Shown here piece after piece: positions 36,433 through 64,000 of a stretch of DNA of 64,000 nucleotides (position 1 is the stretch's first letter; each line of letters opens with the position of its first letter). The translations under genes were made by a program, and so were the position numbers. The notes beneath the pieces were generated by a model. The model saw only the letters and a program-made list of their open reading frames with translations. It did no database searches and was not told where the DNA came from. Origin of the DNA: an uncultured Methanosarcinales archaeon (GTDB lineage Archaea > Nanobdellota > Nanobdellia > Woesearchaeales > ARS49); NCBI GenBank assembly GCA_964617195.1, contig CAZTVK010000019.1:144793-208792 (forward strand). Reading direction: 5' to 3'.

Positions 36433-36816
36433 AAACTCAAAAACGTATTTGATAATATCATAATCAGGCGGATTGAATTTCAAATTCAAAGCCTCCTCTT
36501 CTGTAACCATTTTCATTCCCTGGCCTTCTTTCTGATTGAATGAATTCAGTGCAGGAAGTGGCGATGTGAATGCATATACGGTAAAAGTAACTCCAGGCAA
36601 TCGGTGATTAGATTTCTTAATAAAAATAAAATCCTTCAAGTCATACGATAGCTCTTCCTTTGTCTCACGCACCACTGCCTCTTCAGGAGTCTCTCCAGCT
36701 TTAATCCCGCCGCCAAAGAAACCCCATTCTTCGCCGAATTTACTCATATCCTGCCTATCCTGTACCAGAATTTTATCACCTTTAAAGAAAAAGATTAAAG
36801 CAACATCACGATGCAT
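36400..36816 (-). CDS. NUDIX hydrolase
   Basis: Nudix box 'GGGIKAGETPEEAVVRETKEELS'. Confidence 0.8.
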   Translation of the reverse strand: MHRDVALIFFFKGDKILVQDRQDMSKFGEEWGFFGGGIKAGETPEEAVVRETKEELSYDLKDFIFIKKSNHRLPGVTFTVYAFTSPLPALNSFNQKEGQGMKMVTEEEALNLKFNPPDYDIIKYVFEFLRARENKLGE

Positions 36817-37751: not shown

Positions 37752-37785
37752 TTTTACACTTCACACTCTTTTTTGTTATTAAACC

Positions 37786-38739: not shown

Positions 38740-38763
38740 TTCCTTATAAATACTTTTTGGTAA

Positions 38764-41825: not shown

Positions 41826-41828
41826 GGC

Positions 41829-42989: not shown

Positions 42990-43125
42990 GAAATCACCTT
43001 TTTTTCCTGAACGATAAACCATCCTGGAGACTATATAAACATTTCTACAATCAAAGCAGCACAATTTAGCGCAACATTTATATACTATTTACTATTGAAA
43101 AGGAGTAAATTATGGGGGAGTTCAT

Positions 43126-43587
43126 ATGAATAGAATACTTAAACTGTTAATCGCAACGTTATTCGTTCTACCAATAGTATCAGCTTCACACAACAGCTAT
43201 GAAAGCTACGGAAACTACGACTATTCATCCCACAAAGACTTCGAATATGTGAATTACCACGAAACAGAAGACGTGTATCGAAATTCTAACCGTGACTCAT
43301 GCGGCTATTACGATTACGACTATTACGGCTCAACATGCAACAATTACGGCGACAGCTACTCATTCCACAGAAGCAGAGACTTTGAATTCGGAAGATACAG
43401 CGAAGACATCTACGCATCAGGAAACTCAAACAGCGGCTACTCAAACTACGGGTATGATACATACCACTACCCGTCAAGCGGCTACTACCCAACATACAGC
43501 TATGACTACGACACAGACTACGAGGGCGGAAGGTACAGCGCAGGAATAGGAATGGGAATGTACGGCTATCTTCCATACGACTACTAA
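43126..43587 (+). CDS. secreted Tyr/Ser/Asp/Gly-rich low-complexity protein
   Basis: Sec signal 'LLIATLFVLPIVSASHN'; ~20% Tyr, repeated 'YDYDYYG', 'SGYSNYGYDTYHY'. Confidence 0.55.
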   Translation: MNRILKLLIATLFVLPIVSASHNSYESYGNYDYSSHKDFEYVNYHETEDVYRNSNRDSCGYYDYDYYGSTCNNYGDSYSFHRSRDFEFGRYSEDIYASGNSNSGYSNYGYDTYHYPSSGYYPTYSYDYDTDYEGGRYSAGIGMGMYGYLPYDY

Positions 43588-44153
43588 TGAAATACGCACT
43601 CATTTTTTTAATACTAATCAGCACAGCAACAGCAACACACGACTTCTACTTTTACAACAACGAGAATGACTTGCACTATAATGTTGCAGGTGCTTTATAC
43701 GACCCATTTGACGGGCATGACGTAGAAGACGTAGTAGATTTTGACGATTACGAATGCATATCCCTAGAAGATCACAATTACTACGCAAATCTAGACCCAT
43801 ACGACGGAATGGACCCTTACACTTCGAAAAACATTGGAAGCAGATTTGACGACCTACGCTACGAAGACCAGATCACAATCATCAACGAAAACCCAAGCGA
43901 CAAATGGGATTCAAATGACGTTAATGACGAAGGCGACATGGAATGCTGGACACTAAAAGACTACAACAGTTATGCAGATGACAGCCAAAGCGACGAATGG
44001 GATGAAGTGTACTTCCACGACTTTGACGATTTAGAAACAGTAAATGAAATCGGAATCCGCAGATACGGATTCATAGAACCAGACGACCTAGCAACGTTTG
44101 ACTTGCAGTACACCGCGCCTCACTACGACGACTACGATTATTATTACAGATAA
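43587..44153 (+). CDS. secreted hyper-acidic Asp/Glu/Tyr-rich protein
   Basis: Sec signal 'ALIFLILISTATATHD'; >20% Asp, paired Cys; start overlaps previous stop. Confidence 0.55.
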   Translation: MKYALIFLILISTATATHDFYFYNNENDLHYNVAGALYDPFDGHDVEDVVDFDDYECISLEDHNYYANLDPYDGMDPYTSKNIGSRFDDLRYEDQITIINENPSDKWDSNDVNDEGDMECWTLKDYNSYADDSQSDEWDEVYFHDFDDLETVNEIGIRRYGFIEPDDLATFDLQYTAPHYDDYDYYYR

Positions 44154-51079: not shown

Positions 51080-51775
51080 TTAAAAAGCTTTCGTCGACAG
51101 CCTTCTGAGTTCAGCAGTAGTCAGAACACGCCATTTACCCGGCTTTAAATTGCCCAATTCAATAGAACCAATACGAGTCCTCACAAGTTTTTCAACAGTA
51201 CGGCCAAGCTTTTCAAACAAAAGCCTCACAATATGCTTCCTGCCCTCATGAATCCTCACCACAACTTCCTTGCCAGCAACATCCAAACCCAACAATCTCA
51301 CTTTCCTATCATCAATCACGACACCCCTCTCCAATCTGTCCATCGCTTCATCTGACAACGGCCTATCAAGAACAGCAAAATACTCCTTCAAAACCTCAAA
51401 TTTAGGATGCGTCAACCTATTAGCAAAATCACCATCATTAGTCAATAACAGCAAACCCTCAGTATGCTTGTCCAGCCTGCCAACAGGAAAAACTCGTTCA
51501 GGAACCCTCACCAAATCCATAACAGTCTTCATCCCATGATGCTCGCTGACAGTCGTTACGAACCACTTCGGCTTGTTCAACATGATGTAAACTTTCTTCT
51601 CAACAGAAACAGGCCTGCCATTAACAACAATTTTATCCTTTTCAGGATCAGCCTTCTGACCAATAACTGCAACCTTGCCATTAACCCGAACACGACCATT
51701 CACAATAAAATTCTCAGCCTTACGCCTGCTAGCAATACCAGCCTGCGCGAGAATCTTTTGAATACGCTGCTCCAT
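51080..51775 (-). CDS. pseudouridine synthase, RsuA/RluB family (S4 domain + catalytic domain)
   Basis: S4 'RIQKILAQAGIASRRKAENFIVNGRVRVNG'; catalytic 'PVGRLDKHTEGLLLLTNDG'. Confidence 0.88.
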   Translation of the reverse strand: MEQRIQKILAQAGIASRRKAENFIVNGRVRVNGKVAVIGQKADPEKDKIVVNGRPVSVEKKVYIMLNKPKWFVTTVSEHHGMKTVMDLVRVPERVFPVGRLDKHTEGLLLLTNDGDFANRLTHPKFEVLKEYFAVLDRPLSDEAMDRLERGVVIDDRKVRLLGLDVAGKEVVVRIHEGRKHIVRLLFEKLGRTVEKLVRTRIGSIELGNLKPGKWRVLTTAELRRLSTKAF

Positions 51776-51796
51776 ACTTCCCCCGTCGCAGAAAGT

Positions 51797-51807
51797 CTTT
51801 TAAATAC
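51797..51807. promoter_or_regulatory. single symmetric TATA element 'cttttaaatac' centred between divergent start codons 51775 (-) and 51827 (+)
   Basis: ~25 nt from each ATG, consistent with two leaderless transcripts sharing one TATA box. Confidence 0.4.
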
Positions 51808-51826
51808 TTATCGAGAGCAATTAACC

Positions 51827-52390
51827 ATGATTGACATAGTTTTCCCGAACAAAAACGAAGAAGAATTCATAGAAATGGCAAAACGCCTCGGCATAGGCGG
51901 ACTAATCCTCACATACAAAAACAAAACAGAGTTCTACCAAAAAAAAGCAGACATCCCAATAATCAATGCACTGCATGTTGAACCGAAAAACGTCAGCAAA
52001 GCAAAACAACTAAACGCGCCAAGCATCTGCAACGCAAGCAGAGAAGCAATAGAACGAGGAGCAAATGTCGTCTTCGGATTCGAATTGCTAGAAGAAAAAG
52101 AGCACACGCACTACAGAAGATCAGGACTAAACCAAGTATTATGCAAGCTGGCAACAGACAAAAAAACGGCAATAGGATTCCCGTTCTCAACAATACTGAA
52201 CAGCACAGGACAAAAAAGAGCACAATTGCTAGGCAGAATAATGCAAAACATCACCTTCTGCCAAAAATACAAAACACCAATGAAAATAGCAAGCTTTGCA
52301 ACACAACCATACGAACTGAGAGCACCAGCCGATTTAGCAGCATTCTTCGCACAACTAGGCATGCAAAATCCCTATAGCGCGCTTAAATAG
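51827..52390 (+). CDS. RNase P protein component 3 (Rpp30)-like TIM-barrel protein, short form
   Basis: start at 'MIDIVFPN'; upstream part of ORF overlaps pseudouridine synthase gene; weak resemblance to Rpp30/PHP fold. Confidence 0.4.
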   Translation: MIDIVFPNKNEEEFIEMAKRLGIGGLILTYKNKTEFYQKKADIPIINALHVEPKNVSKAKQLNAPSICNASREAIERGANVVFGFELLEEKEHTHYRRSGLNQVLCKLATDKKTAIGFPFSTILNSTGQKRAQLLGRIMQNITFCQKYKTPMKIASFATQPYELRAPADLAAFFAQLGMQNPYSALK

Positions 52391-52451
52391 CGCCAAGAGG
52401 AAAGTATTTAAACCAATGTTGGTTTTTCCCCTATATAAAAAGAGGGGGATA

Positions 52452-54215
52452 ATGCGGTCGTACACATACATCATAATACTACTACTCAGCGTCTCAGCAC
52501 TAGCGCAAGATGCAATAATAACAGTCTCATTCTCACAAACAGTCCCAAAAAGCACATCCATAGTTCTAAGCACCAGCGCAGTAAGCGGCACTTACGACTT
52601 GGGCAACCCCTTCTTTGTGCAAACACTCACAGTAAGCGCAACCATTCCCTGCTGCACTCCAGGATGGTGGTACGATTCATGGAGATGCTCAATAGGCGGC
52701 GAAGACGCCTACACATACTGCGGATCTGTCAGGCTCTGCGCAGGATATGATGATGACACAATAGTGGACTGCAAGCCACTCGGAAATTTTGCGCCACAGC
52801 AAACCATAACATACAACGTCAACAAAGTCATCCGTACAGTCACTTTTGCATATGGCGACGGACGAACAACTCAGACTGGACAGCAAGTCAACATCAACCA
52901 AATCACCTCAACCGGAGGCGGATTCGCACAAATTCCGCGTTCACTACCATCACTCAGAGGACCAGCACCAATATTCCTAGGACTCGTACGAGAAAAAATA
53001 GTAGTAGGCGACTACACAGGAGACTTCCTCGTCTCCAGCAGCGACCCACGAGCACTCGCATGGTTCCACCCAACAGGAGGAATAAGCGCAGTAGACAGAA
53101 CAACAACACCAAACTTTGATGACGAAATACACGCATGTCTCGACTCAGACGCAAACAAACTATGCGATTACGACGACGAACTGGAATGTGAAGGACAAGA
53201 CAAAGACTGGTACAACGGAGATTGCTGCCACGACGCTCCATTCAACCCGGAATCAGAAACACCTCCAAATGAATGCCAATGGTACGGAACAGAAAACACG
53301 AAGAAAATGGACGCAGTATGCGGAAAAGACGACCAAGGCATATGGAAATGGGCAGCACTAGGAGATATCGGATTAATCAACATACTAAGCGGCAGCTGCC
53401 CAACAATGCAAATAGTCTCAGACGGAACAACATTCTACACGTGCAGCACGGGCAGCCAGACAGTCATTCCAACAGACCTAGTCAAACCACTCACAGAAAA
53501 GATGACGATCTTCGGACACGAATACTTCTGCCAAGGTGAAACCATAATAGAATGCGGAGGAAGCGCACCATACTCACCAACCGCAAAACAAATAGGAGCA
53601 TCAACAACATATGAAAACAAAAAACAATACTGTACAGCACAAGGCAGATGGGTCACAAGCCTTGACAGCGCAGGAAGAGACTCTTGTGTCGCTGCCGGAC
53701 TTCGCTGGACAGGCACGAAGTGTTGCGGAGAAACAGACGACCCACTAGAAACGTATGAAGACCCATACACAGGACAAGGAACAGCAGGAGCCTGCTACAA
53801 CAACCAATTCATCGCATCAGGAAGCTTCTTCTCAGGAACAAAAGACATCATCAACTACAGAGGAAAGTTCGCAATCTGCGAGCCAACAAGACTGCCAGGA
53901 ACAAGCGCAACAACAACAGCGCCAGAATTCACAGGCACAACAATCACGCCAATAGCATACGGACCATGCGGAACACCATTACAACAAGCAATCCTGACAG
54001 GAACTTTACAGCACATAGTCTGCATGCCAAGCGGAGACTGGCAGTTCACAAGCAAAACAGAACCACACCTCGTAAAACAAACAATCTGGATGCCATCAGA
54101 AGTAGAAGACAAAAAAGGATGCTGCCCGGAAAACCAATGCTGGGACGGACAACAATGCAAAGACATCGGATATTACTATGACAAAATCATCGGAAAGGGG
54201 TACAGATGCGAATAA
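52452..54215 (+). CDS. secreted Cys-rich extracellular protein
   Basis: start at 'MRSYTYIIILLLSVSALA' (SD 'gagggggat' upstream, TATA ~52404); ~40 Cys, 'CC' pairs. Confidence 0.6.
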   Translation: MRSYTYIIILLLSVSALAQDAIITVSFSQTVPKSTSIVLSTSAVSGTYDLGNPFFVQTLTVSATIPCCTPGWWYDSWRCSIGGEDAYTYCGSVRLCAGYDDDTIVDCKPLGNFAPQQTITYNVNKVIRTVTFAYGDGRTTQTGQQVNINQITSTGGGFAQIPRSLPSLRGPAPIFLGLVREKIVVGDYTGDFLVSSSDPRALAWFHPTGGISAVDRTTTPNFDDEIHACLDSDANKLCDYDDELECEGQDKDWYNGDCCHDAPFNPESETPPNECQWYGTENTKKMDAVCGKDDQGIWKWAALGDIGLINILSGSCPTMQIVSDGTTFYTCSTGSQTVIPTDLVKPLTEKMTIFGHEYFCQGETIIECGGSAPYSPTAKQIGASTTYENKKQYCTAQGRWVTSLDSAGRDSCVAAGLRWTGTKCCGETDDPLETYEDPYTGQGTAGACYNNQFIASGSFFSGTKDIINYRGKFAICEPTRLPGTSATTTAPEFTGTTITPIAYGPCGTPLQQAILTGTLQHIVCMPSGDWQFTSKTEPHLVKQTIWMPSEVEDKKGCCPENQCWDGQQCKDIGYYYDKIIGKGYRCE

Positions 54216-55327
54216 AAATTCTCATCATAACAGCATTGCTCCTTTCAACACTAGTTGCGGCAGCAGACTGGAAAGAAGTCAATGTTAAGTACACCACTGA
54301 CAGAAAATCAGTAGGATACTGCAAAGACCCAAACCAATGCCTAGTAAGCAACGCGTTCAGCGACAACTGGGACAACCTGCCAGAAAGATACTGGTCAGAA
54401 ACACTCAACCAAAACAAGCCAAAATGCATAACGACTGGGCAGTACATCTCAGACAACTACTGCGACAACGGAATCTGGAGCTCAAGAACAAAATTAATAG
54501 CCGAACACCTGCTCGCGACAGCCCTCAACACAACACCAAACAACTTCTCAATATTCTGCGACACATACAAAACTGTCCTCAACAGGTACGCGTACAGCAC
54601 GGATTATGGAACCGTAACCAGCTACATATCAACACTCTGCATACAACCCGGCAACAAGCGCTCAGACATCTGCGTAAACAACATCTGCGTCATGCGATAC
54701 GGACAAAGCACAGCCTTCGGAATGGCGATCAACACAGACATCAACGGAGCAAAAAGCACGCTACAAGCACTCAACATGAGCCCAAGCGAATGCGACAGTG
54801 CAATAGACAATGACGCAAAGTTCGACCCATGCGGAAACGGACTATGGTACGACCACAACACAAACTCCATAATCTACGCACCAGACGTAGCACTTCTTCC
54901 AGTGCCTACAAGCGTCACAAATGACTTTTTCATGCTACCATACAACAAACTCAAAGACTACGTTTACACAGTAGTCCACAAACCAGACATCGTCAGATAC
55001 AACTACACATTCTTCAACCTGCCACCACAATTCCAACAAGTCTACATGGCAAAAGACGAATTCGACTTTTTCTACTCATTCAGACAAAAAAACGTCACAC
55101 TAGCACAAATCACATACGCGGGATGGTACCTATCAAACATCAAACTACCTGACGACACGTGCAGCAGAATAATCAAAAGATACGACAGCTGGGCAAACTG
55201 CGAAGAACAACCAAACCCATCAGAATTCTACATCGCAGCACACAGAACCCCGCCAACAAAAACAGACCAAAGAGCAAGCATAGTCGACGCGTGGGAAGAA
55301 ATGGAAAAAATCAGGGTGAGCCCGTGA
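54206..55327 (+). CDS. secreted Cys-containing extracellular protein
   Basis: Sec signal 'ILIITALLLSTLVAAADW'; overlaps previous gene by 10 nt. Confidence 0.6.
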   Translation: MRIKILIITALLLSTLVAAADWKEVNVKYTTDRKSVGYCKDPNQCLVSNAFSDNWDNLPERYWSETLNQNKPKCITTGQYISDNYCDNGIWSSRTKLIAEHLLATALNTTPNNFSIFCDTYKTVLNRYAYSTDYGTVTSYISTLCIQPGNKRSDICVNNICVMRYGQSTAFGMAINTDINGAKSTLQALNMSPSECDSAIDNDAKFDPCGNGLWYDHNTNSIIYAPDVALLPVPTSVTNDFFMLPYNKLKDYVYTVVHKPDIVRYNYTFFNLPPQFQQVYMAKDEFDFFYSFRQKNVTLAQITYAGWYLSNIKLPDDTCSRIIKRYDSWANCEEQPNPSEFYIAAHRTPPTKTDQRASIVDAWEEMEKIRVSP

Positions 55328-56718
55328 AGAAAGCGCAAATCACAATCTTCATCATCATCGGTGCATTAGTCCTCGTAGCATTCGGAATAACATTCTACGT
55401 CGGCTCAAAAATGGGCCAACGCATAGAAACAAAAGAAACCACACAACGCATAGAACAACTCGGCATACAACCAATACAAGACTACATCACAACATGCCTT
55501 TCGCTAGCCACAACAGAAGGACTCTCCCTAATCGGCAGACAAGGAGGAGCCATCTACAAAAAACAAGGAGGACTAACACAAGACCACATTGAAGGCGAAG
55601 GAGAAAAGTACGTCAAGTACACAGACCCAGACTTAGGAATACTAGACGTATCATTCCTAATCCATCCCCCAATGGAAAACGTTGGACAATTAGGATGCCA
55701 GCAAAGCAAAACATGCCTCTTCTACTCAGAACCACCAACCTATCCCTTTGAAGGATTCCCATACCTGCCAGACGGCAGCACACTATTCAACGGATATTAT
55801 GGCATAAGCAAACTCCCACCATTATACAAAATCAGCCAAGACGCAGAACGCAAAAAAGTCGAAGGAAGCATACAAGAAAACCTGGAAACATTCATCGCAA
55901 AAAGAACAACAGACTGCGTGAACTGGAAAACATTCCAAGAAAAAGGATACACAATAACTGCAGGCACTGCAGATGCGTCTTTATTATTCGCAGAAAAAGA
56001 ACAAGTAGAAAAGTTTGTTGCGAGCGGAGCGTTTGGCGAACAACACATAAGCGTAGAACTACTCTGGCCGATAGAAGTCGCCACGCCAGGAGGAGATAAA
56101 ACAATACTCAAAGACTTCGCAATCAAAACACAAGTACGACTCGTCACAATCTATTACACGATCAAAGCAATGATAGACGGAGACGTAACAGACGTATCCT
56201 ACACTCCAGAAAGCAAAGGAGAATTCTCAACCTTAATTTTGCCATACGGCCACAACAGTTTCATCATAACAAAAGACGCGCAAAGCATGGTTGGAAACAA
56301 ACCATTCGAATTCTGGATACCACGCAAGAACAGACGACCAGCAATATGGAAAATAGATACAACACCACTGAAAGGCATCACCCTGCACATCACACCAGAC
56401 GGAACCGGAACACGAATAAAAATCGTGAAAATCAACGACAACGAATCACAAATAGAATTCGAAGACCCATGCCCAACAGAAACACTCCCAATAATCAAAC
56501 TACGAGCATCAGACCCAGATGAAGACCCAGTAAGCTTCGCAGTCCACATTCCGGCAAGCACAAACGATAGAATACCGCAAGACGCAGTAAATTTCGAAAA
56601 GTTCAGCATCACAATATACGCAAAAGACAGAAGCCAACACGACAATAACTGGTTTGACTCAGAAGAAATAATTTTCCAAGACGTACCAATGCAGGTAGGA
56701 ATATGCGAAGTACGATAA
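55324..56718 (+). CDS. extracellular protein with class III (type IV pilin-like) signal peptide
   Basis: GTG start overlapping previous stop (GTGA); N-term 'VKKA|QITIFIIIGALVLVAFGITFYV' = basic n-region, +1 Gln, 21-aa hydrophobic stretch. Confidence 0.5.
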   Translation: MKKAQITIFIIIGALVLVAFGITFYVGSKMGQRIETKETTQRIEQLGIQPIQDYITTCLSLATTEGLSLIGRQGGAIYKKQGGLTQDHIEGEGEKYVKYTDPDLGILDVSFLIHPPMENVGQLGCQQSKTCLFYSEPPTYPFEGFPYLPDGSTLFNGYYGISKLPPLYKISQDAERKKVEGSIQENLETFIAKRTTDCVNWKTFQEKGYTITAGTADASLLFAEKEQVEKFVASGAFGEQHISVELLWPIEVATPGGDKTILKDFAIKTQVRLVTIYYTIKAMIDGDVTDVSYTPESKGEFSTLILPYGHNSFIITKDAQSMVGNKPFEFWIPRKNRRPAIWKIDTTPLKGITLHITPDGTGTRIKIVKINDNESQIEFEDPCPTETLPIIKLRASDPDEDPVSFAVHIPASTNDRIPQDAVNFEKFSITIYAKDRSQHDNNWFDSEEIIFQDVPMQVGICEVR

Positions 56719-59700
56719 ACATACTAGTCACGATCACAGCGCTTTTACTAATCCTACCAATCTTCACAACCGCACAACCAGCAGTCGGATGCTGCTGCGA
56801 CCCAATCCTAAAACGCGGCAGTTTCACAACAGCAGCAGAATGCGCAGCACTAGGATTCAACTTCACAGGACCACCACCAAGCCTGAGCATCACTTGCGAC
56901 CAGCACTGCGAAGCAATACTCATACCAGAAGCGCCAGCACAATGCGGAGACAATATCTGCCAAGCAACAGAAACAGCTTCAACCTGCCCAGGAGACTGCG
57001 CACCAATAGTTTCAGGCTGCGGAAGCCCAGCCTACAAGCCCCCAGCAGAACAATTCACAATCACACCAGTCAAAAACACCAAAGCACTCATACTCAGCTT
57101 CACAGTGCCCTGCCCATCAGACTACATAACAGTTCAGCGCTGTCCAGGAACAGACTGCACAAACTTCACAACAATAGCAGAAATCCCGCCAACAACAGTC
57201 TTCACAGACGAAGACTCACAATTAGAATTCAACAAAGACTACAACTACCAAATAAAAGCACACTACACAATAGCAGGAGAAGGAGAACCGGCAACAGCCA
57301 TCGGAAACGCAGGAGACATAGAATGCTGGCAGCAAAAAAAAGAAACCTTCTGCCTCAACGACTTTTCGTACGATCAATACTTAGAATACCTTACAAAATT
57401 CGGATACGCCCGAAACAGCGCGGCAATATTCCAAGCAGCATTCGATAGAACAGTAGACCTCACATTCTCAACAAGATTCAACAAAGCATGGCAATGCAAC
57501 GACATCAACCTCTTAGCAGAGCCAAGCCCGCAAACAACCTGCGACAGCAAACAAAACGAATACTGCATCTCAGACGAAAACGGAGCAAGATGCGCAAGAA
57601 GAGAACCATGCGGACCAGGATTTGACCCATTCGGCCTGTATGCCATCCAAGACGCATGCGAAGCAACAGGATTCCTGCCAAGATACTGCTTTTTTGACAA
57701 AAGCATCACAACACCAGACAAATGCTACAGCTGCGACCCAAGAATGACCTGCTATGACTACAAAGGCAAAAACGCATGCGAACGCGACAATTGCGGAGCA
57801 GGAGACTGCCAATGGCGACAAGTATTCGAAGACATAGGAACAGGAGTATGCGTTGACACGAGATACAACAACTGCGAACTCTGCGACAAAAAAGGAACAC
57901 CAGACATAGAAAATTCCAACGCAACCAGCGACATTTGGGACGCGTGCAGAGAAGAAAAAAGCACAGCACTAAGCACAACAGCATACCCCTGCTTCTACGA
58001 CAAAGACAGAAAAAGAAGCAAAACATGTGATGAAGCGACGTGCGCTGATTACACAGAACTCCAATGCGGCTCACCAGAAGGAGGAATCAAACTAAACCCA
58101 GACAACAAAATAATCAAGAAAAGCACAGACACCTGCAGCATAGGAGTCTGCCACCACACCAGAGAAACAGGATGCATAAAAAATGCAGACGGAAACATCG
58201 GAGCAGGATTCCAAGACTGCGCGTACGGCAACAAAACCTGCGAACAAGACTACTTCCCACCAATCACCACACTCATACCAACAGGACTCGCAGGAAGAGT
58301 AGACCTCATCAACATAAGAATATTCGACAAGACAAGCAGGGCAACAGCACCAGTCAACTACGCAGGAAAACCAGGCTACAGAACATACCTATGCGTCAAA
58401 AATGAAACAAACACGTGCGCAGACTCGCGCGCATTCAACATAGCAGTCAACACAGCGCAACTCGTCCTGAAAAACACAGCACTCAAACTTGCAAACAAAA
58501 CGCTAGCCAAACTAGATACAGGCAACAACACAATAACATTCTACAGCAGAGACGCAGCAAACAACCTCGAAATATTGCGAGACATGAACATATTCGCCTG
58601 CGAAAAATGCAGCGGGCCAACACTATTGAATTTCACAGTAACAGGCGGAAGAATAATCGGAAAAACAATCTACACCTCAGCAAAAAGGCCAACATTCACG
58701 TTCACTTTCGACGAGCAGACAATAGTAACGTACGCAGACATAACAAGACCAGAAACAGGCACGATCTCGCTAACACAACAAACCCCAGGAGCACACGAAA
58801 TACACTCATTCATCCCAATCGCAGACCTGCAAGGAACCTACAATTTCACAATCAACGGGCACAACGACCAAAACATCTACTTCGACCCAGCATTATCCTT
58901 TACATTAATCGCAGACCCAGACCTCGCAGACGTCAACATCACCCCGGCAGACGGAAGCATACTCAACAAAACACTCGTAGACATAGAACTAAACTTCAGC
59001 AAACCTGTGACACTCAACAACATCACACTATCACTAGAAACATTCGAAGACCCATACATCAAAAAAGAAACAAAAAGAGACATCACTGCACTGTTCAAAA
59101 CAACCAACAACAGAACATACACGGCAAAAGCAGACAAAATCTCCGGAGGAAAAAACACGATAATAGTAGACGCGCTAGGCTACAACGCGCTCAACATCTA
59201 CAAAGAAAGCAGCTTCTTCGTATCAATAACAAAACCAGGAATAAGACTAACCAAACCAGACTTCGGAGTAACAGCATACTCAATATTCAACACAAGCATA
59301 GAAACACAACTATCCGCAAAATGCGCATACGTCTTCGACGCGCCAACCGCACCAAGCAGCACAGACTTCGAATTCTTCAAACAAATGGAAGGCACAGGCA
59401 CAATGCACACATCAAGCGGGCTAAGCATCAACTACGGAGACCCAAACGCGCACCCGCTCCACGTCTACTGCAACTTTGAAGATTACGGATTCGGAATCAT
59501 ACAACGAACATTCAACCTAACACTAGACCCAGACCCGCCAATAATCAAAAAATCATTCGCAGAACCATCAGTAATAGCAGAACAATACTACCCAGACAGA
59601 GAAATCTACGTCACAACACTCAAAACACAACTGAACAAGCCAGGATTCTGCAAATACTCAGCAAGCATCAGCAACTTCGCCAATATGGAAGGACTCTTCC

Positions 59701-61814
59701 CAGGATACGACATCGCACCAAAAGAAAGCCTCGGAGCAGACGTTAATGTCACAGAGAAAAAAACACACGACTATTGGATCGTATGCAAAGGCAAAAACCA
59801 ATTGCTGTCAAAACCAGAAAAAGTATCGTTCACAATAGACCTCGCGCAAAAACTGAATGTCTCAAGCAGCACTCCACAAGGATTCGCAACAACGAACTTC
59901 ACAATAGGAGTAGTTGCGAACAAAAGAGTATTCTGCTATTTCGGAGAACAAGAAGACGACACGACAAAATGCATGGGCGCCTGCACGTCAAGCTACACAC
60001 AATCACAAAAAATCACGGTAAGCGCACCCGGCCCATACACCTACTTCGTAAAATGCGCACACGTCACAGGAGAACAATCAGACGTAATAGAAATCCCAGT
60101 CATAATTGACACCTCACCGCCAACAATGGATTACGTAAAAGACGACGGCTCAATAACAGAAGACCCAGCCATCACATGGTCGCAAAGCAAAATAAGAGTA
60201 GCAGTCAACGCAAAAGACGAAGAAAGCGGAATATCACACTACCTCATCACGCTCAAAGGACAGACAGACAACAAAATAGAATTCAAAGACTACGTCAGCG
60301 ACATAACAAATGGAGAGTACTTCTACATCAGACTCAAGCCAAACGGCGAGCCATTCAGACTCAGAAACGACAACAGTTACAAATTCGTCGTCAAAGCAGT
60401 CAACAGAGTAGGACTTGAAAGCGAAATAATGGAAAGTGACGGAGTACGAGTAGACACGTCCCAAGAACCAGGACCCTGCGGAGACGGAGAACTAAGCCAA
60501 AACGAAACAGACATGGACTGCGGAGGAGAATGCGACGGTTGCCCAGAAAACAGGAAATGCGGAATTGACGGAGACTGCGCGACAAACTACTGCCAAGACA
60601 AACTCTGCAAAGTAGCAAGCTGCGAAGACGGCTACAAGAACGGCCTCGAATCAGACGTTGATTGCGGCGGACAAACCTGCAACCAATGCGAAAAAGACAT
60701 GCGCTGCATCCAACACGCAGACTGCAAAACAGAATACTGCGACATACAACAAGAAATTTGCGTAGACGCGCCACCATGCGCAGACAAACTACTCACAACA
60801 GGAGAAACAGACATAGACTGCGGAGGACCATGCGAAAAATGCAAAGAAGACCAAAACTGCGCTGAAAAAACAGACTGCTCAGAAGAACTCTACTGCACAC
60901 CAGACACAAAAAAATGCAGCTCGGAAATACCAGGAGACGAAGACCACGACGGAATACTGGACGACATTGATGACTGCTTCGGCACACCAGCAGACGAAAC
61001 ACCAGACGAAAAAGGCTGCGGGCCATCACAAACATTCACACTAGGCGACGACATCAACGACAGATGGAGAATGGACCACTTCAAATGCATAGACTGCCCA
61101 GAAGCAGCAACAGACGCAGACCCAGACAAAGATGGATTAACGAACCTCCAAGAATTCACACAAGGAACCAATCCAACAAAGAAAGACACAGACGGAGACG
61201 GATGGAAAGACGGCGTTGAGCTAGACAAAGGCACAAGTCCAACAGACCCAGCAAGCCACCCGCCAAGCATATTCCTCGGATTCCTCTGGACAATATTCAT
61301 ACTCCTCCTAATCGCAGGAGCAGGCTACGGAATCTACATAGTCCTGCAAGCACGAAAAGAAAAGAAAAAACCTGCCATAGCTGAAAAATACGCCATCGAA
61401 AGACCACCAGCTAAAATCACAGCAGCAGAAGAAATCGCCAAACTAAAAGAATTCGCAAAAGAAGAAGAAATTCCGGAAAAAGACTGGATATCACTGGAAA
61501 AAGTCATCAAGAAAAAACCACTTCCACCCAAGAAATTCGCAGAAGCAATAGAACAACTGCGAAAAATCGCGCACAAAGAACGCGCAAAACCAGAACAACC
61601 ACTAATGCGACTACGAGCAATGCTGGATGAAATCGGCGAAGACGAAAAAATAGAACTCTTAGCACGCTGGAAAATGTTGAAAGCGGGATTGCTCACAAAA
61701 GCAGAAATCGAAGAACTCCTAAGAAGACTCAAAATAACAGCACAATACTACCACGCGCACAAAGAAGAACTCGACCAAGAACTGGCACACTATGGCAGGC
61801 GCAAAAAACACTAA
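56703..61814 (+). CDS. giant (1703 aa) type-I membrane surface protein / adhesin with Cys-rich modules and thrombospondin type-3-like Ca-binding repeats
   Basis: Sec signal; 3x 'CG(D)GE..ETD.DCGG.C..C' modules; 'DEDHDGILDDIDDC', 'DADPDKDGLTNLQEF', 'DTDGDGWKDGVELD'; C-terminal TM 'IFLGFLWTIFILLLIAGAGYGIYIVL' + charged tail. Confidence 0.7.
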   Translation: MRSTINILVTITALLLILPIFTTAQPAVGCCCDPILKRGSFTTAAECAALGFNFTGPPPSLSITCDQHCEAILIPEAPAQCGDNICQATETASTCPGDCAPIVSGCGSPAYKPPAEQFTITPVKNTKALILSFTVPCPSDYITVQRCPGTDCTNFTTIAEIPPTTVFTDEDSQLEFNKDYNYQIKAHYTIAGEGEPATAIGNAGDIECWQQKKETFCLNDFSYDQYLEYLTKFGYARNSAAIFQAAFDRTVDLTFSTRFNKAWQCNDINLLAEPSPQTTCDSKQNEYCISDENGARCARREPCGPGFDPFGLYAIQDACEATGFLPRYCFFDKSITTPDKCYSCDPRMTCYDYKGKNACERDNCGAGDCQWRQVFEDIGTGVCVDTRYNNCELCDKKGTPDIENSNATSDIWDACREEKSTALSTTAYPCFYDKDRKRSKTCDEATCADYTELQCGSPEGGIKLNPDNKIIKKSTDTCSIGVCHHTRETGCIKNADGNIGAGFQDCAYGNKTCEQDYFPPITTLIPTGLAGRVDLINIRIFDKTSRATAPVNYAGKPGYRTYLCVKNETNTCADSRAFNIAVNTAQLVLKNTALKLANKTLAKLDTGNNTITFYSRDAANNLEILRDMNIFACEKCSGPTLLNFTVTGGRIIGKTIYTSAKRPTFTFTFDEQTIVTYADITRPETGTISLTQQTPGAHEIHSFIPIADLQGTYNFTINGHNDQNIYFDPALSFTLIADPDLADVNITPADGSILNKTLVDIELNFSKPVTLNNITLSLETFEDPYIKKETKRDITALFKTTNNRTYTAKADKISGGKNTIIVDALGYNALNIYKESSFFVSITKPGIRLTKPDFGVTAYSIFNTSIETQLSAKCAYVFDAPTAPSSTDFEFFKQMEGTGTMHTSSGLSINYGDPNAHPLHVYCNFEDYGFGIIQRTFNLTLDPDPPIIKKSFAEPSVIAEQYYPDREIYVTTLKTQLNKPGFCKYSASISNFANMEGLFPGYDIAPKESLGADVNVTEKKTHDYWIVCKGKNQLLSKPEKVSFTIDLAQKLNVSSSTPQGFATTNFTIGVVANKRVFCYFGEQEDDTTKCMGACTSSYTQSQKITVSAPGPYTYFVKCAHVTGEQSDVIEIPVIIDTSPPTMDYVKDDGSITEDPAITWSQSKIRVAVNAKDEESGISHYLITLKGQTDNKIEFKDYVSDITNGEYFYIRLKPNGEPFRLRNDNSYKFVVKAVNRVGLESEIMESDGVRVDTSQEPGPCGDGELSQNETDMDCGGECDGCPENRKCGIDGDCATNYCQDKLCKVASCEDGYKNGLESDVDCGGQTCNQCEKDMRCIQHADCKTEYCDIQQEICVDAPPCADKLLTTGETDIDCGGPCEKCKEDQNCAEKTDCSEELYCTPDTKKCSSEIPGDEDHDGILDDIDDCFGTPADETPDEKGCGPSQTFTLGDDINDRWRMDHFKCIDCPEAATDADPDKDGLTNLQEFTQGTNPTKKDTDGDGWKDGVELDKGTSPTDPASHPPSIFLGFLWTIFILLLIAGAGYGIYIVLQARKEKKKPAIAEKYAIERPPAKITAAEEIAKLKEFAKEEEIPEKDWISLEKVIKKKPLPPKKFAEAIEQLRKIAHKERAKPEQPLMRLRAMLDEIGEDEKIELLARWKMLKAGLLTKAEIEELLRRLKITAQYYHAHKEELDQELAHYGRRKKH

Positions 61815-62352
61815 ACCACGAAAATGCAATACATTTTCGAGCCTCAAAGTACTTCGTACTTCGAGGGCGCAAATCATCGGCCAAGTATTCATCTACATAC
61901 TCGCAGGCCTGGTATTCATCCTAATCCTCACATACGGATACAAAGCGATACAATACTTCCTAGAAAGACAAGAACAAGTCATGATGGTAGACTTCAGAAC
62001 AGACCTAGAAATAGCAGTAGAAGGAGTCAAACGCGATTACGGCACTGTCAGAAAAGTAGAACTCAAACTTCCAAGCAAATACCAAGGAGCCTGCTTTTTT
62101 GACGCTGAAAAGTGCGCGCAAACAACACCAAAACTAATCCTTCCAACACATGAAGTAGCTGTCTCGTGGGCACAAGACGCGTGCATACTCAAATCAGCAA
62201 ACGTGTTCACAATACCCAGAGACCAAGCCATCGCACTACCAGACGTACAAGTAGAAAACGGATACTTGTGCGTGCCAAACACAGGAAAAATCACAGTGCG
62301 CATGGAAGGCACTGGCAAAAAAGCAAAAATCTCAGAATGGAAATCACAATGA
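61792..62352 (+). CDS. pilin-like protein (class III signal peptide-like N-terminus)
   Basis: '...LRTSRA|QIIGQVFIYILAGLVFILILTYGY'; start overlaps giant gene by 23 nt (start uncertain). Confidence 0.4.
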   Translation: MAGAKNTKPRKCNTFSSLKVLRTSRAQIIGQVFIYILAGLVFILILTYGYKAIQYFLERQEQVMMVDFRTDLEIAVEGVKRDYGTVRKVELKLPSKYQGACFFDAEKCAQTTPKLILPTHEVAVSWAQDACILKSANVFTIPRDQAIALPDVQVENGYLCVPNTGKITVRMEGTGKKAKISEWKSQ

Positions 62353-63491
62353 AAAACGACCGCAAGCCCACGAGCTCCTACGGGAGCTCGGGGCCCCCTT
62401 TTAGAGGCAGACATGCACAATTCGAAATGCAATTCCACTGGATATTCGTCCTAGTAGCAGGAGCATTAATCCTCGCGTTCTTCTTTACAGTAGCGCACAG
62501 GCAAAGAGCAATCAGCACAGAAAGACTTCAATTAACACTCGCAACAGACATAGAAAACATTTTCACAGGAGCAATAGTAAGCAGAGGCACAGCACAATCA
62601 CTGCCAGTGCCTCCACAAGGCATAGCATTCGAATGCACAGAAGGATGCGACTGCGCATTCCGCATAGGAAACGCGCAACGCTCTTACGGAGACAAATCAC
62701 TATTCGCACCAGAACTACTGGAAGAACGCAACATAAAAGTCTGGGCACAAGAACTAAAAATGCCCTACAGGGCAACCAATTTCCTCTATCTAACAAATCC
62801 AAATATCAAATACTACTTTGTCTACAACGAAGGAGACACCACACGACTGCAACAACTCACCAAACACATCCCACTGCTAAGAGAAGACGACCAAATAGTC
62901 CCATTCATGGACTACGAAAACATAACCACAACACAAATCACATCACTCAAAGCAGAAGACTACCAACACACAAAATTCGTATTCCTCAACGCCAACCCGC
63001 CAACACTAGACGACTCGTTCAGAAAGAAAAGCTTCAGCGCAATAAAAATAGATGAACAAGGAGTAACATTCTACGAAAAAAACATTTTACAATTCCGAAA
63101 CGTCAGAACACTCAGCTATGTAGGACTTCCAAGCCTCTACGCGGCAATATTCGCACACGACTACATCATGTATTCCTGCGGACTCCGCACAGCATTCAGA
63201 AAACTCAGCTACGTGGCTCAACTTTACGCAGAACGAGCAGCAGAACTGCAAGAAAAATCAATAGAAGCAGGAAGAGACTGGTGCAACTACGGAGCAATAG
63301 ACCCAGCACAACCATGCGAAGGAGCAGACCCAAGCACAGTCATAGGAATGCTCTGCGAACAACACAAACTAGCGCAAGAACTCTCAGTAAACATAGACAA
63401 ACCAAAAATCGACAGGCTAAGCCCGCTAATGCAATACTTAGACAGCAAAAACAGAAATTTCATCCAACAAAGCTGCCCGGAGCTGTTTTGA
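62349..63491 (+). CDS. pilin-like extracellular protein (class III signal peptide-like)
   Basis: ATG overlapping previous stop (ATGA); 'FRGRHA|QFEMQFHWIFVLVAGALILAFFF'. Confidence 0.4.
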   Translation: MKNDRKPTSSYGSSGPPFRGRHAQFEMQFHWIFVLVAGALILAFFFTVAHRQRAISTERLQLTLATDIENIFTGAIVSRGTAQSLPVPPQGIAFECTEGCDCAFRIGNAQRSYGDKSLFAPELLEERNIKVWAQELKMPYRATNFLYLTNPNIKYYFVYNEGDTTRLQQLTKHIPLLREDDQIVPFMDYENITTTQITSLKAEDYQHTKFVFLNANPPTLDDSFRKKSFSAIKIDEQGVTFYEKNILQFRNVRTLSYVGLPSLYAAIFAHDYIMYSCGLRTAFRKLSYVAQLYAERAAELQEKSIEAGRDWCNYGAIDPAQPCEGADPSTVIGMLCEQHKLAQELSVNIDKPKIDRLSPLMQYLDSKNRNFIQQSCPELF

Positions 63492-63983
63492 ATGGTGAAC
63501 TCCCGACGCTCACAAATCAAAATGTTTGAAACAGTAGGAGTACTAATGGTATTCTTCTTCCTGCTCGCAATCGGATCAGTAATCTATTTCGGAGTCCAAA
63601 AATCAGCAATGCAAAAAGAAAAAGTCAAATCAAGCGAACAATACGCATTCCAAATAGTCCTAAAATCACTTTATTTACCGGAACTAGACTGCTCATTCCT
63701 CGTCACGCAAAGAGACAACTGCATAGACAAAATAAAACTATCAAAACTATCCAAACTAATAAAAAATGATGAAAACGCACTCATGGACTATTACAGCGAC
63801 TTCGGCTACGCAACAATAAAAGTAGAAGAAGCATTCCCAACAGAAGAAAAATGGACCATGTATGAAAACATCCCACCAGACTACACGGGAAAGCTTTCAA
63901 CACAAAGCCCAATACTATTATACGACGCGTGGGACGACACCTACGCCTTCGGAATAATCGAGGTAAGCGTATATGTACAATAA
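63492..63983 (+). CDS. pilin-like extracellular protein (class III signal peptide-like)
   Basis: 'MVNSRRS|QIKMFETVGVLMVFFFLLAIGSVIYF' short basic n-region, +1 Gln, Glu at +6. Confidence 0.45.
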   Translation: MVNSRRSQIKMFETVGVLMVFFFLLAIGSVIYFGVQKSAMQKEKVKSSEQYAFQIVLKSLYLPELDCSFLVTQRDNCIDKIKLSKLSKLIKNDENALMDYYSDFGYATIKVEEAFPTEEKWTMYENIPPDYTGKLSTQSPILLYDAWDDTYAFGIIEVSVYVQ

Positions 63984-64000
63984 AAAAGCGCAAACAGAAA

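What the first reader, a model, noticed from the sequence alone, without database searches (positions are those of the whole stretch)
56703..61814. A giant 1703-aa cell-surface protein with repeated Cys modules, thrombospondin-type-3-like calcium-binding repeats, a C-terminal TM anchor and a cytoplasmic tail
Sequence: an N-terminal Sec signal is followed by a long extracellular region with many paired Cys residues. Three consecutive ~40-aa modules of the form 'CG(D)GE…ETD.DCGG.C..C' lie at about 60470-60900. Asp-rich 'DxDxDGxxD' repeats such as 'DEDHDGILDDIDDC', 'DADPDKDGLTNLQEF' and 'DTDGDGWKDGVELD' resemble TSP type-3 and OmpA-associated Ca-binding motifs. A single TM helix, 'IFLGFLWTIFILLLIAGAGYGIYIVL', is followed by a ~170-aa Lys/Glu-rich cytoplasmic tail. 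The next pilin-like gene starts 23 nt inside its 3' end. Inference: this is a receptor-like adhesin, as expected for an obligate symbiont or epibiont.
Basis: partly seen in the sequence, partly recalled or inferred. Interest (0 to 1): 0.5.

Follow-up and report, generated by a model that had tools for sequence, protein, structure and literature searches.

The report
Giant archaeal spike within pilin operon
The 1703-residue gene is real and encodes a long, cysteine-rich, membrane-anchored surface protein that, in every related Woesearchaeota (DPANN) genome with enough flanking sequence, lies in the same eight-gene operon with five pilin-like proteins, so it is probably one subunit of an undescribed cell-contact apparatus rather than a free-standing adhesin.

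Summary
ORF 56703-61814 (+) encodes 1703 aa with a Sec-type signal, 82 cysteines that are all outside the cell, three homologous 8-Cys modules, three TSP3-like Asp motifs, one TM helix and a 155-aa helical cytoplasmic tail. It overlaps the next gene by 23 nt.

It is not a merged-gene artefact. About 50 full-length homologs (31-81% identity, most 1676-1716 aa) align almost without indels, and nearly every Cys is invariant.

New findings:
- The window comes from a Woesearchaeota/Nanoarchaeia archaeon.
- The gene is the fourth gene of a tightly overlapping operon. The order 599-aa and 373-aa secreted proteins, pilin-like 464, GIANT, pilin-like 186, 380, 163, ~158 is kept in every one of ~24 species-level loci with enough flank.
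- All five small neighbours carry textbook class III (prepilin) signals.
- Predicted structure: a Cys-rich head whose core had no PDB match in the two searches run, one FN3 domain, seven further beta-sandwich domains, the Cys modules, the Ca-motif region, the TM helix and a helical tail.
- Conservation is even along the protein, and part of the head core (aa 336-520) is among its best-conserved segments, which is unlike a fast-evolving adhesin.

Best reading (about 0.5): it is the membrane-anchored spike subunit of a lineage-specific surface apparatus related to type IV filaments and used for cell or substrate contact. No family member has been characterised. I class it as a new variant of a known kind.

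The parts
52416..54215 (+). Operon gene 1: 599-aa secreted Cys-rich protein with a Sec-type N-terminus and no known domain
   Evidence: ORF. No Pfam, NCBIfam or PDB hit. Its homolog occupies the same position in every locus with enough upstream flank. In L003 it is fused to the gene 2 homolog, with a Laminin_G_3 lectin-like insert.
54206..55327 (+). Operon gene 2: 373-aa secreted protein; overlaps gene 1 by 10 nt
55324..56718 (+). Operon gene 3: 464-aa prepilin-like protein. Start is GTG at 55324 ('VKKAQ|ITIFIIIGALVLVAFG'), a 4-nt overlap with gene 2 and a 16-nt overlap with the giant gene.
   Evidence: Start located. The leader [KR][AG]-Q plus a hydrophobic segment of about 20 aa is conserved in 27 of 28 loci. 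No PDB or Pfam hit.
56703..61814 (+). Operon gene 4: the giant 1703-aa type I membrane protein (the finding)
56703..56774 (+). Sec-type signal peptide (aa 1-24), predicted cleavage TTA|QP
   Evidence: Hydropathy. The consensus 'AQxxGCCCDP' is conserved.
56775..57032 (+). Distal small Cys-rich tip domain (aa 25-110) with invariant G-C-C-C. It is the least conserved ectodomain segment.
   Evidence: 27% identity among distant relatives.
57033..57317 (+). FN3-like beta-sandwich (aa 111-205)
57318..58262 (+). Head core (aa 206-520): an alpha/beta part followed by a disulfide-knotted part, 28 Cys in all, nearly all invariant. No PDB match appeared in the searches run. Its second half (aa 336-520) is one of the two best-conserved segments.
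58263..60467 (+). Stalk: seven beta-sandwich (Ig/FN3-like) domains, aa 521-637 plus six between aa 638 and 1255
   Evidence: AF2 models, pLDDT mostly 85-95. Foldseek E down to 3e-16 against Ig/FN3 arrays. Weak CopC/Big_13 Pfam signals.
60477..60929 (+). Three homologous 8-Cys modules (aa 1259-1409), 'C..ETDxDCGGxCxxC..C....DC....C....C'
   Evidence: No PDB sequence homolog. No Pfam hit.
60930..61262 (+). Membrane-proximal Asp-rich region (aa 1410-1520) with three TSP3-like DxDxDGxxD motifs. It is the best-conserved segment.
61269..61346 (+). Single transmembrane helix (aa 1523-1548)
   Evidence: A C-terminal TM helix is present in nearly all full-length family members.
61347..61811 (+). Cytoplasmic Lys/Glu-rich helical domain (aa 1549-1703) ending in the conserved 'LKITAxYYxxHKxELxxEL'
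   Evidence: AF2 predicts helices, pLDDT about 75-83. Alignment A4. No PDB or Pfam homolog.
61792..62352 (+). Operon gene 5: 186-aa prepilin-like protein ('SRAQ|IIGQVFIYILAGLVFILI'); 23-nt overlap with the giant gene
   Evidence: leader and motif conserved across the 27 loci listed.
62349..63491 (+). Operon gene 6: 380-aa prepilin-like protein. Start is ATG 62349, a 4-nt overlap ('RHAQ|FEMQFHWIFVLVAGALILAFFF'; orthologs read 'KKG|FELQFHWIF').
   Evidence: conserved across the 26 loci listed.
63492..63983 (+). Operon gene 7: 163-aa prepilin-like protein ('RRSQ|IKMFETVGVLMVFFFLL')
   Evidence: conserved across the 25 loci listed. 111 homologs; every one that carries a taxon name is Woesearchaeota, Nanoarchaeia or 'uncultured archaeon'.
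63973..64000 (+). Operon gene 8: start of the fifth prepilin-like gene (about 158 aa in relatives), 'MYNKKAQTE...', cut off by the window end
   Evidence: The ortholog consensus '[KR][GA]-Q-[MT]-E-I-[FM]-G-L' is seen in the 24 loci listed.

Best explanation
The ORF encodes the giant membrane-anchored 'spike' subunit of a surface apparatus specific to Woesearchaeota. The apparatus is encoded by one conserved eight-gene operon: two secreted Cys-rich proteins, the giant protein and five type IV prepilin-like proteins.

Proposed mechanism (shown or inferred is marked):
1. The protein is exported by Sec and stays anchored by its C-terminal TM helix. The topology is supported: all Cys and all sequons lie outside, and the tail follows the positive-inside rule.
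2. The ectodomain is stiffened by about 40 disulfides, N-glycans and Ca2+ bound at three TSP3-like Asp loops next to the membrane (inferred).
3. Eight beta-sandwich domains and three 8-Cys modules form a stalk of several tens of nm (inferred from the predicted structure). The stalk holds a conserved Cys-rich head away from the cell.
4. The head had no PDB match in the searches run. It would make the contact, either with a partner or host cell envelope or substrate, or with the two secreted operon products, which carry a lectin-like domain in one lineage (inferred).
5. After cleavage by a prepilin peptidase, the five pilin-like proteins would form a short assembly of minor-pilin or pseudopilus type that is built together with the spike. 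The evidence is translational coupling, strict co-linearity and similar rates of evolution. Their N-terminal helices may pack against the spike's TM helix (speculative).
6. The conserved helical cytoplasmic domain would link the complex to an unidentified intracellular partner (speculative).
For: - The gene is real and conserved. There are 55 homologs, about 50 of them full length, most 1676-1716 aa, at 31-81% identity. The 39-sequence alignment has almost no gaps and nearly all Cys are invariant.
- The head profile finds more than 100 clusters (at 50% identity) with the same head, stalk, Cys-module, TM and tail plan. Every member that carries a name is Woesearchaeota.
- Synteny: the order up599, up373, pil464, giant, pil186, pil380, pil163, pil158 is kept in every locus with enough flank among 31 loci, which include 27 GTDB species representatives. 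A very distant 3119-aa member keeps the four downstream pilin-like genes.
- Gene junctions overlap by 0-23 nt.
- Class III signals: all five neighbour families have a short basic leader ending in G, A or S. It is followed by Q (or F/I-E) and about 20 hydrophobic residues, in 24-28 loci each. This matches EppA-type archaeal pilins, which have a +1 Gln and a nearby Glu (PMC3875500).
- Co-evolution: the neighbours diverge at rates similar to the giant, for example 30-45% against 39% in L001.
- Structure: FN3 and Ig-like arrays predicted with high pLDDT.
- Sequons: 20 observed against 11.3 +/- 3.2 expected (P about 0.007). All are in the ectodomain, and 14 sequon columns are shared by at least half of the family.
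- Part of the head core (aa 336-520) and the TSP3-like region are the best-conserved segments.
- A lectin-like Laminin_G_3 domain is inserted in the fused upstream protein of L003.
- Precedent for pilus-mediated host binding in ultrasmall episymbionts: Saccharibacteria (PMC9894109, PMC11623550, listed).
Against: - There is no experimental evidence for any family member.
- No type IV assembly ATPase, platform protein or prepilin peptidase is encoded in the window or within 10 kb of the operon in the four loci with gene calls. Filament assembly is therefore unproven.
- No pilin Pfam or NCBIfam model matches the neighbours.
- Known pilus-associated giant adhesins such as PilY1 are not TM-anchored.
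- Ca2+ binding rests on motifs that score below the Pfam cut-off in this protein.
- The ligand is unknown.
- A conserved head could equally mean a structural role, such as a lattice, rather than an adhesive one.
Confidence: 0.5

Rival explanations
1. Free-standing receptor-like adhesin. The protein acts alone as a host-specific attachment molecule, and the pilin-like neighbours are only adjacent.
For: - Type I topology, an Ig/FN3 stalk, Ca-type motifs and a Cys-rich distal head are typical of adhesins.
- The organism is a DPANN archaeon.
- The extreme N-terminal tip (aa 25-110) is the least conserved ectodomain segment.
Against: - Operon position is fixed and junctions overlap in every locus with enough flank.
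- Among close relatives there are no length or repeat-number changes.
- Part of the head core (aa 336-520) is among the best-conserved segments.
- There is one locus per genome in 26 of the 27 GTDB loci, rather than a multigene adhesin repertoire.
Confidence: 0.15
2. Envelope (S-layer-type) scaffold protein. The giant protein is the membrane-anchored glycoprotein that builds or carries the cell wall layer of these archaea, and the operon partners act as anchoring or assembly factors.
For: - It has a Sec signal, a C-terminal TM anchor, an Ig-like domain array, enriched and conserved N-glycosylation sequons and Ca-type motifs.
- It is vertically conserved, appears to be single-copy and lies next to housekeeping genes.
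- The Foldseek hit list includes the six-Ig-domain Haloferax S-layer protein 7ptp.
- Conservation is even along the protein.
Against: - No S-layer family matched in Pfam or NCBIfam.
- The gene sits in the middle of a translationally coupled eight-gene operon. From general knowledge, S-layer genes are usually strongly expressed on their own or in pairs.
- A conserved 155-aa cytoplasmic domain and 82 Cys are atypical.
- The 7ptp match reflects generic Ig arrays and ranks 20th among many.
Confidence: 0.15
3. PilY1-like pilus tip adhesin. The protein is loaded on top of a minor-pilin complex and carried outward on a type IV pilus made of a major pilin encoded elsewhere. The TM helix would be only a pre-assembly anchor.
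For: - A large, Sec-exported, Ca-motif-bearing non-pilin protein is encoded among pilin-like genes of graded size.
- From general knowledge, this mirrors the bacterial fimU-pilVWXY1E arrangement.
Against: - No PilY1/PilC beta-propeller was detected by Pfam or by fold search.
- The TM helix plus a long cytoplasmic tail is present across the family, which argues for permanent membrane anchoring.
- No assembly ATPase lies nearby.
Confidence: 0.1
4. Assembly or annotation artefact: merged genes or a chance ORF on a T-poor strand.
For: The + strand is very T-poor (14% T in the gene; third codon positions 4% T). Long spurious ORFs therefore occur in other frames, for example 58415-59479 at 354 aa.
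Against: - Full-length collinear homologs occur in dozens of independent assemblies, with invariant Cys and no indels.
- The shuffle maximum is 242 codons against 1703 observed.
- The structure models are confident across all the proposed domain junctions.
Confidence: 0.01

Closest known systems
Bacterial type IVa pilus minor-pilin/PilY1 operon (fimU-pilVWXY1E) and T2SS GspH-K pseudopilins
   Same: A large Sec-exported non-pilin protein with Ca-type motifs is encoded among several pilin-like genes of different sizes, in one tightly coupled operon. No major pilin or ATPase is in that operon.
   Different: The organism is an archaeon. There is no sequence or fold similarity to PilY1, since no beta-propeller was found. 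The giant protein has a permanent C-terminal TM anchor and a conserved cytoplasmic domain. There are five pilin-like genes plus two extra secreted proteins.
Archaeal EppA-processed Epd pilins of Methanococcus maripaludis (class III signal, +1 Gln)
   Same: The neighbours have short basic leaders ending in G or A, a +1 Gln, a nearby Glu and a hydrophobic helix of about 20 residues (PMC3875500).
   Different: No DUF361/Class_IIIsignal or other pilin model matches. Sizes reach 464 aa. The peptidase and the assembly machinery were not identified here.
Thrombospondin type 3 / bacterial TSP3 repeats (Pfam PF18884)
   Same: DxDxDGxxDxxE-type Asp loops occur three times with invariant Asp residues. 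Some orthologs pass the Pfam model.
   Different: This protein scores 20 bits, below the 25-bit cut-off. Only three repeats are present, and they lie just outside the membrane rather than forming a long wire.
Archaeal membrane-anchored S-layer glycoproteins (tetrabrachion, SlaB, Haloferax csg)
   Same: Sec signal, glycosylation sequons, Ig-like arrays or long stalks, and a C-terminal anchor.
   Different: No family match. The operon context, the cysteine content and the long cytoplasmic domain all differ.
Eukaryotic type I adhesion receptors with Cys-rich membrane-proximal repeats (e.g. integrin beta I-EGF modules); analogy only
   Same: Overall plan: distal head, stalk, tandem 8-Cys modules of about 45 aa near the membrane, single TM helix, cytoplasmic tail.
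   Different: No homology was detected. The Cys spacing is different. The resemblance comes from memory and was not tested.

Membership tests
Bacterial TSP3 repeat (Pfam PF18884) | HMM score at or above the gathering cut-off (25 bits) | tested here: not met
   20.0 bits, E 6e-4, two stretches, best at aa 1495-1516. Nineteen of 55 homologs carry a precomputed PF18884 hit.
Bacterial TSP3 repeat (Pfam PF18884) | Asp-rich DxDxDGxxDxxE calcium-loop motif, conserved | tested here: met
   Three motifs at aa 1412, 1471 and 1495. Their Asp residues are invariant or at least 90% conserved in 39 sequences. Ca2+ binding itself cannot be tested here.
FN3/Ig-like beta-sandwich arrays | Beta-sandwich fold matching solved FN3/Ig domains | tested here: met
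Type IV pilin-like proteins (the five neighbours) | Class III signal: short basic leader ending in G/A, a +1 Q or F, then about 20 hydrophobic residues | tested here: met
   Present in all five families in nearly all of the 24-28 loci each. Compared with the EppA-substrate description in PMC3875500.
Type IV pilin-like proteins (the five neighbours) | Match to a curated pilin or class III signal model | tested here: not met
   No pilin family in Pfam or NCBIfam at E up to 0.1. The only signal is a weak BasB match at E 0.024 for the 163-aa protein.
Type IV pilin-like proteins (the five neighbours) | Prepilin peptidase and assembly ATPase/platform present in the genome; actual processing | not testable with these tools
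   None in the 64-kb window or within 10 kb of four related loci. Whole genomes could not be scanned.
PilY1/PilC pilus tip adhesins | C-terminal beta-propeller (PilY1/Neisseria_PilC domain) | tested here: not met
   No Pfam hit. No propeller appears in the models or the fold searches.
PilY1/PilC pilus tip adhesins | Encoded within a minor-pilin operon | tested here: met
Archaeal S-layer glycoproteins | Match to a known S-layer domain family | tested here: not met
   None in Pfam or NCBIfam. There is only a generic Ig-array structural similarity to 7ptp.
Archaeal S-layer glycoproteins | Forms a 2-D lattice; very high abundance | not testable with these tools
   Needs cryo-ET or proteomics.
Unnamed Woesearchaeota giant-spike family (defined here) | Full-length match to the 610-position head profile, plus a C-terminal TM helix and tail | tested here: met
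   The query was used to build the profile. More than 100 independent clusters match end to end and share the TM helix and tail.

The most novel reading that the evidence does not exclude
The eight-gene operon encodes a previously undescribed archaeal surface organelle. A giant TM-anchored, disulfide-knotted spike with a new head fold is built on, or together with, a five-subunit stub related to type IV filaments, and is wired to the cytoplasm through a novel helical domain. This would be the conserved host-contact, and possibly material-exchange, machine of the uncultured Woesearchaeota.
Probability: 0.3. Interest if true: 0.75.

Novelty: new variant of a known kind. Interest (0 to 1): 0.55.

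Why it matters
To my knowledge Woesearchaeota have no cultured representative, and my literature searches found no description of how they contact hosts. This locus is vertically conserved, appears to be single-copy, and combines a giant spike with five pilin-like proteins. It is therefore a concrete, testable candidate for their cell-contact apparatus.

It offers defined targets: the head, the 8-Cys module, the tail and the pilin set. These can be used for structure prediction of complexes, antibody or FISH-correlated cryo-ET, and metaproteomics. It also adds an archaeal case to the recurring pairing of minor pilins with a giant accessory protein. In this case the giant protein stays anchored in the membrane.

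Tried and rejected
- Pfam and NCBIfam on the giant protein gave only sub-threshold TSP3_bac, CopC, Amuc_1099 and OmpL47 signals.
- PDB sequence searches found nothing significant. They covered the whole protein, the tail profile, the Cys-module profile, the 464-aa and 380-aa pilin-like proteins and the 599-aa upstream protein.
- Fold searches returned only FN3 and Ig arrays. No match to the head core (aa 206-520) appeared in the listed top hits.
- The afdb50 library was unavailable.
- The search for homologous proteins with the 47-aa module profile returned only short fragments and was uninformative.
- The search for related loci with the diverse head alignment failed because no conserved 7-10-column stretch existed. 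A closer six-sequence alignment worked.
- BLASTP of the two upstream secreted proteins against the giant protein found no paralogy.
- P0001, the exact protein, was not on record in the contig index.
- The bacterial promoter and terminator scan matched chance expectation and does not apply to archaea.
- Five literature searches found no description of this family or operon.
- Fusexin or class II fusogen, signalling receptor and polymorphic toxin were considered and dropped, because no supporting domain or fold hit appeared.

Full report
**1. The observation**

ORF 56703-61814 (+) is open for 1703 codons, with one terminal stop.
- A Sec-type signal at aa 1-24, with predicted cleavage TTA|QP.
- 82 Cys, all of them before the TM helix.
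- Three consecutive modules at aa 1259-1409 (nt 60477-60929). Each has eight invariant Cys and the core 'E-[TS]-D-x-D-C-G-G-x-C-x2-3-C'.
- Three Asp motifs at aa 1412, 1471 and 1495.
- A TM helix at aa 1523-1548, followed by 'QARKEKKK' and a 155-aa Lys/Glu-rich tail.
- A 23-nt overlap with the next gene. Its only possible start codon is ATG 61792.

The + strand is very T-poor, so long spurious ORFs exist in other frames. Shuffles nevertheless never exceed 242 stop-free codons.

**2. The gene is real, and where it occurs**

The window is archaeal. It encodes RNase P p30, an eRF1-family protein, PheRS alpha and beta, TrmB, SecY, MCM, PolD, Cdc6 and RFC.

A database search gave 55 homologs. About 50 are full length, most 1676-1716 aa, at 81% down to 31% identity. 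Every name given by a source is Candidatus Woesearchaeota, Nanoarchaeia or 'uncultured archaeon'. In a 39-sequence alignment nearly every Cys is invariant. Gaps are almost absent and conservation is even from end to end. This rules out a merged-gene artefact as far as comparative data can.

A profile of the head (aa 25-640) was searched against 1.84 billion representatives. It found 1909 hits at E up to 1e-3 and 220 at E up to 1e-30. More than 100 clusters matched the head end to end. Some hits are unrelated multi-FN3 proteins that match only positions 80-180.

Nearly all full-length members share the plan, whether about 1500-1850 aa or, in some cases, up to 3500 aa. That plan is a head, a Cys-rich stalk, 'ETDxDCG' modules, TSP3-like motifs and a TM helix 100-250 aa before the C-terminus. 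All members that carry a name are Woesearchaeota.

**3. Anatomy from predicted structures**

Two AlphaFold2 models were built on family alignments, with mean pLDDT of 81.6 and 82.7. They give the following layout:

| Segment (aa) | Feature |
|---|---|
| 25-110 | Small Cys-rich tip with invariant G-C-C-C |
| 206-520 | Head core, alpha/beta part then disulfide-knotted part; low-confidence loop at 305-334 |
| 521-637 | Beta-sandwich |
| 638-1255 | Six further beta-sandwich domains (Foldseek E to 3e-16 against Ig/FN3 arrays) |
| 1259-1409 | Three 8-Cys modules |
| 1410-1520 | TSP3-like region |
| 1523-1548 | TM helix |
| about 1574-1699 | Helical cytoplasmic domain |

In both PDB fold searches of the head model the listed matches were essentially confined to the FN3 domain. 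The 8-Cys module profile and the tail profile have no PDB or Pfam relatives.

N-glycosylation sequons number 20, against 11.3 +/- 3.2 expected (P about 0.007). All are extracellular, and 14 sequon columns are shared by at least half of the family.

Identity by domain among distant relatives is highest in the second half of the head core (aa 336-520, 49%) and in the TSP3-like region (51%). It is lowest in the N-terminal tip (27%) and in several Ig-like domains (29-34%).

**4. Context: the key new result**

The giant gene is the fourth gene of a tightly packed operon.

| Gene | Coordinates | Product | Overlap with the preceding gene |
|---|---|---|---|
| 1 | 52416-54215 | 599 aa, secreted, Cys-rich | first gene |
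| 2 | 54206-55327 | 373 aa, secreted | 10 nt |
| 3 | 55324-56718 | 464 aa, pilin-like, GTG start | 4 nt |
| 4 | 56703-61814 | giant protein | 16 nt |
| 5 | 61792-62352 | 186 aa, pilin-like | 23 nt |
| 6 | 62349-63491 | 380 aa, pilin-like | 4 nt |
| 7 | 63492-63983 | 163 aa, pilin-like | 0 nt |
| 8 | 63973 onward | 'MYNKKAQTE...', cut by the window end | 11 nt |

Gene calls around homologs at 38%, 34% and 31% identity show the same order. A scan of GTDB species representatives returned 27 loci, all titled Woesearchaeota or Nanoarchaeia apart from generic TPA labels. A tblastn search with each window protein found the order up599, up373, pil464, giant, pil186, pil380, pil163, pil158 in every locus with enough flank, about 24 in all. 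A very distant 3119-aa member keeps the four downstream genes.

All five small families begin with a short basic leader ending in G, A or S. This is followed by Q (in pil380, by F/I/L-E) and about 20 hydrophobic residues, in 24-28 loci each. Examples are 'MKKAQ|ITIFIIIG', 'KAQ|IIGQVFVFILAG', 'KKG|FELQFHWIF', 'RAQ|IKMFETVGVL' and 'RGQ|MEIFGLVIIV'. This is the class III (prepilin) signature. EppA-processed Methanococcus pilins likewise have a leader ending in Gly, a +1 Gln and a conserved Glu (PMC3875500).

No curated pilin model matches them. No assembly ATPase, platform protein or prepilin peptidase lies in the window or within 10 kb of the four annotated loci. The neighbours diverge at about the same rate as the giant protein. 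In one lineage the two upstream proteins are fused around a Laminin_G_3 lectin-like domain.

**5. Interpretation**

What the evidence establishes is a real, lineage-wide type I surface protein with a modular stalk. It is embedded in a conserved operon with five prepilin-like proteins.

The following is inferred. The operon products form one apparatus. The giant protein is its membrane-anchored spike. Disulfides, glycans and Ca2+ rigidify it. The conserved head makes the contact, either with a partner cell or substrate or with the secreted operon proteins. The pilin-like proteins form a short assembly of minor-pilin or pseudopilus type associated with it. The tail couples the complex to a cytoplasmic partner.

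I give the general model about 0.5. The geometric details are less certain.

Rivals:
It is weakened by the fixed operon position, length invariance and conserved head.
- An S-layer-type scaffold (0.15). It fits the glycoprotein features and vertical conservation. It does not fit the mid-operon position, the long tail or the absence of any S-layer family match.
- A PilY1-like tip adhesin carried on a pilus (0.1). There is no propeller, and the TM anchor and tail are conserved.
- An artefact (about 0.01).

**6. Comparison and novelty**

The closest working analogy is the bacterial minor-pilin/PilY1 operon. The closest match for the neighbours' signals is the archaeal Epd/EppA pilin class. The Asp motifs resemble TSP3 repeats but fall below the Pfam cut-off in this protein. 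The stalk is a generic FN3/Ig array.

The protein is not a demonstrable member of the PilY1 family, any S-layer family or, strictly, PF18884. Sources that name family members call them 'hypothetical' or, in one case, 'thrombospondin type 3 repeat-containing'. Five literature searches found no description. The nearest statement is the general remark that DPANN type IV pilus loci contain unrecognisable pilins (PMC6393860).

I rate it a new variant of a known kind, with interest 0.55. On its own it is an ordinary-looking giant surface protein. It also marks a conserved, testable candidate for the cell-contact machine of Woesearchaeota, which to my knowledge remain uncultured.

Noticed in passing
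window 1-64000 (whole window): Strand composition is extremely asymmetric. The + strand is A 37%, C 25%, G 18%, T 19%. AT skew is positive in every 2-kb bin, GC skew is negative in all but two, and the cumulative GC skew falls almost monotonically with no switch. Third codon positions are A 51/C 34/G 9/T 6.5% in + strand genes and T 46/G 33/C 12/A 9% in - strand genes, so synonymous sites follow the DNA strand rather than the gene. No skew switch occurs although cdc6/orc1 (22528-23763, -) and PolD lie inside the window.
   Followed up: partly
window 36816-43064 (- strand): A second cluster of five genes has no Pfam hits. It comprises a 411-aa protein with a class III-like N-terminus ('NRRGQKLQSGSPAAALIGIMTLIFIFYILFL'), a 701-aa protein with a Pro/Glu-rich N-terminus, and three proteins of about 315 aa with lipobox-like 'LLLVAC' N-termini. 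It may be another surface system.
   Followed up: partly
window 56789-57448, 58415-59479 and other + strand alternative-frame ORFs: Long ORFs (219-354 aa) overlap the giant gene in other frames. Their translations are low-complexity and rich in Arg, Asn, Gln and His. They are by-products of the T-poor strand, not genes.
   Followed up: yes
L004 3740-8566 and 10001-19360: In a distant Woesearchaeota locus, the 3119-aa giant and a 1608-aa protein two genes upstream share almost the same extra N-terminal Cys-rich segment ('CCLNPNAIERVCAST..ECCPSPP..YPRFY'). This suggests local duplication of the distal tip. P0052 and P0054 carry a related extra N-terminal segment.
   Followed up: no
L003 5500-8715: The homologs of the two upstream secreted proteins (599 aa and 373 aa) are fused into one 1071-aa protein with a Laminin_G_3 (concanavalin-like lectin) domain inserted at aa 429-597 (E 1.6e-17).
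   Followed up: partly
L005-L027 record titles: Many GTDB species-representative MAGs that carry this Woesearchaeota-type operon are titled 'uncultured Methanosarcinales archaeon' (TPA assemblies). The label looks like a placeholder or an error, given 60-80% identity to Woesearchaeota/Nanoarchaeia loci.
   Followed up: no
window 14226-15326 (-), 43126-43587 (+), 43587-44153 (+): Three further proteins have no Pfam hits. One is a 366-aa membrane protein with 16 Cys, an N-terminal soluble part and a TM helix. The other two are adjacent small secreted Tyr/Asp-rich proteins.
   Followed up: no
window 51080-51775 (-) versus 51464-52390 (+): The listed RNase P p30 ORF overlaps the convergent S4/pseudouridine synthase gene by about 310 nt. 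Family matches begin only at aa 130 (NCBIfam) or 218 (Pfam) of the 308-aa ORF, so the true p30 start is probably much further downstream. In L001 and L003 the p30 orthologs are 196-197 aa.
   Followed up: partly
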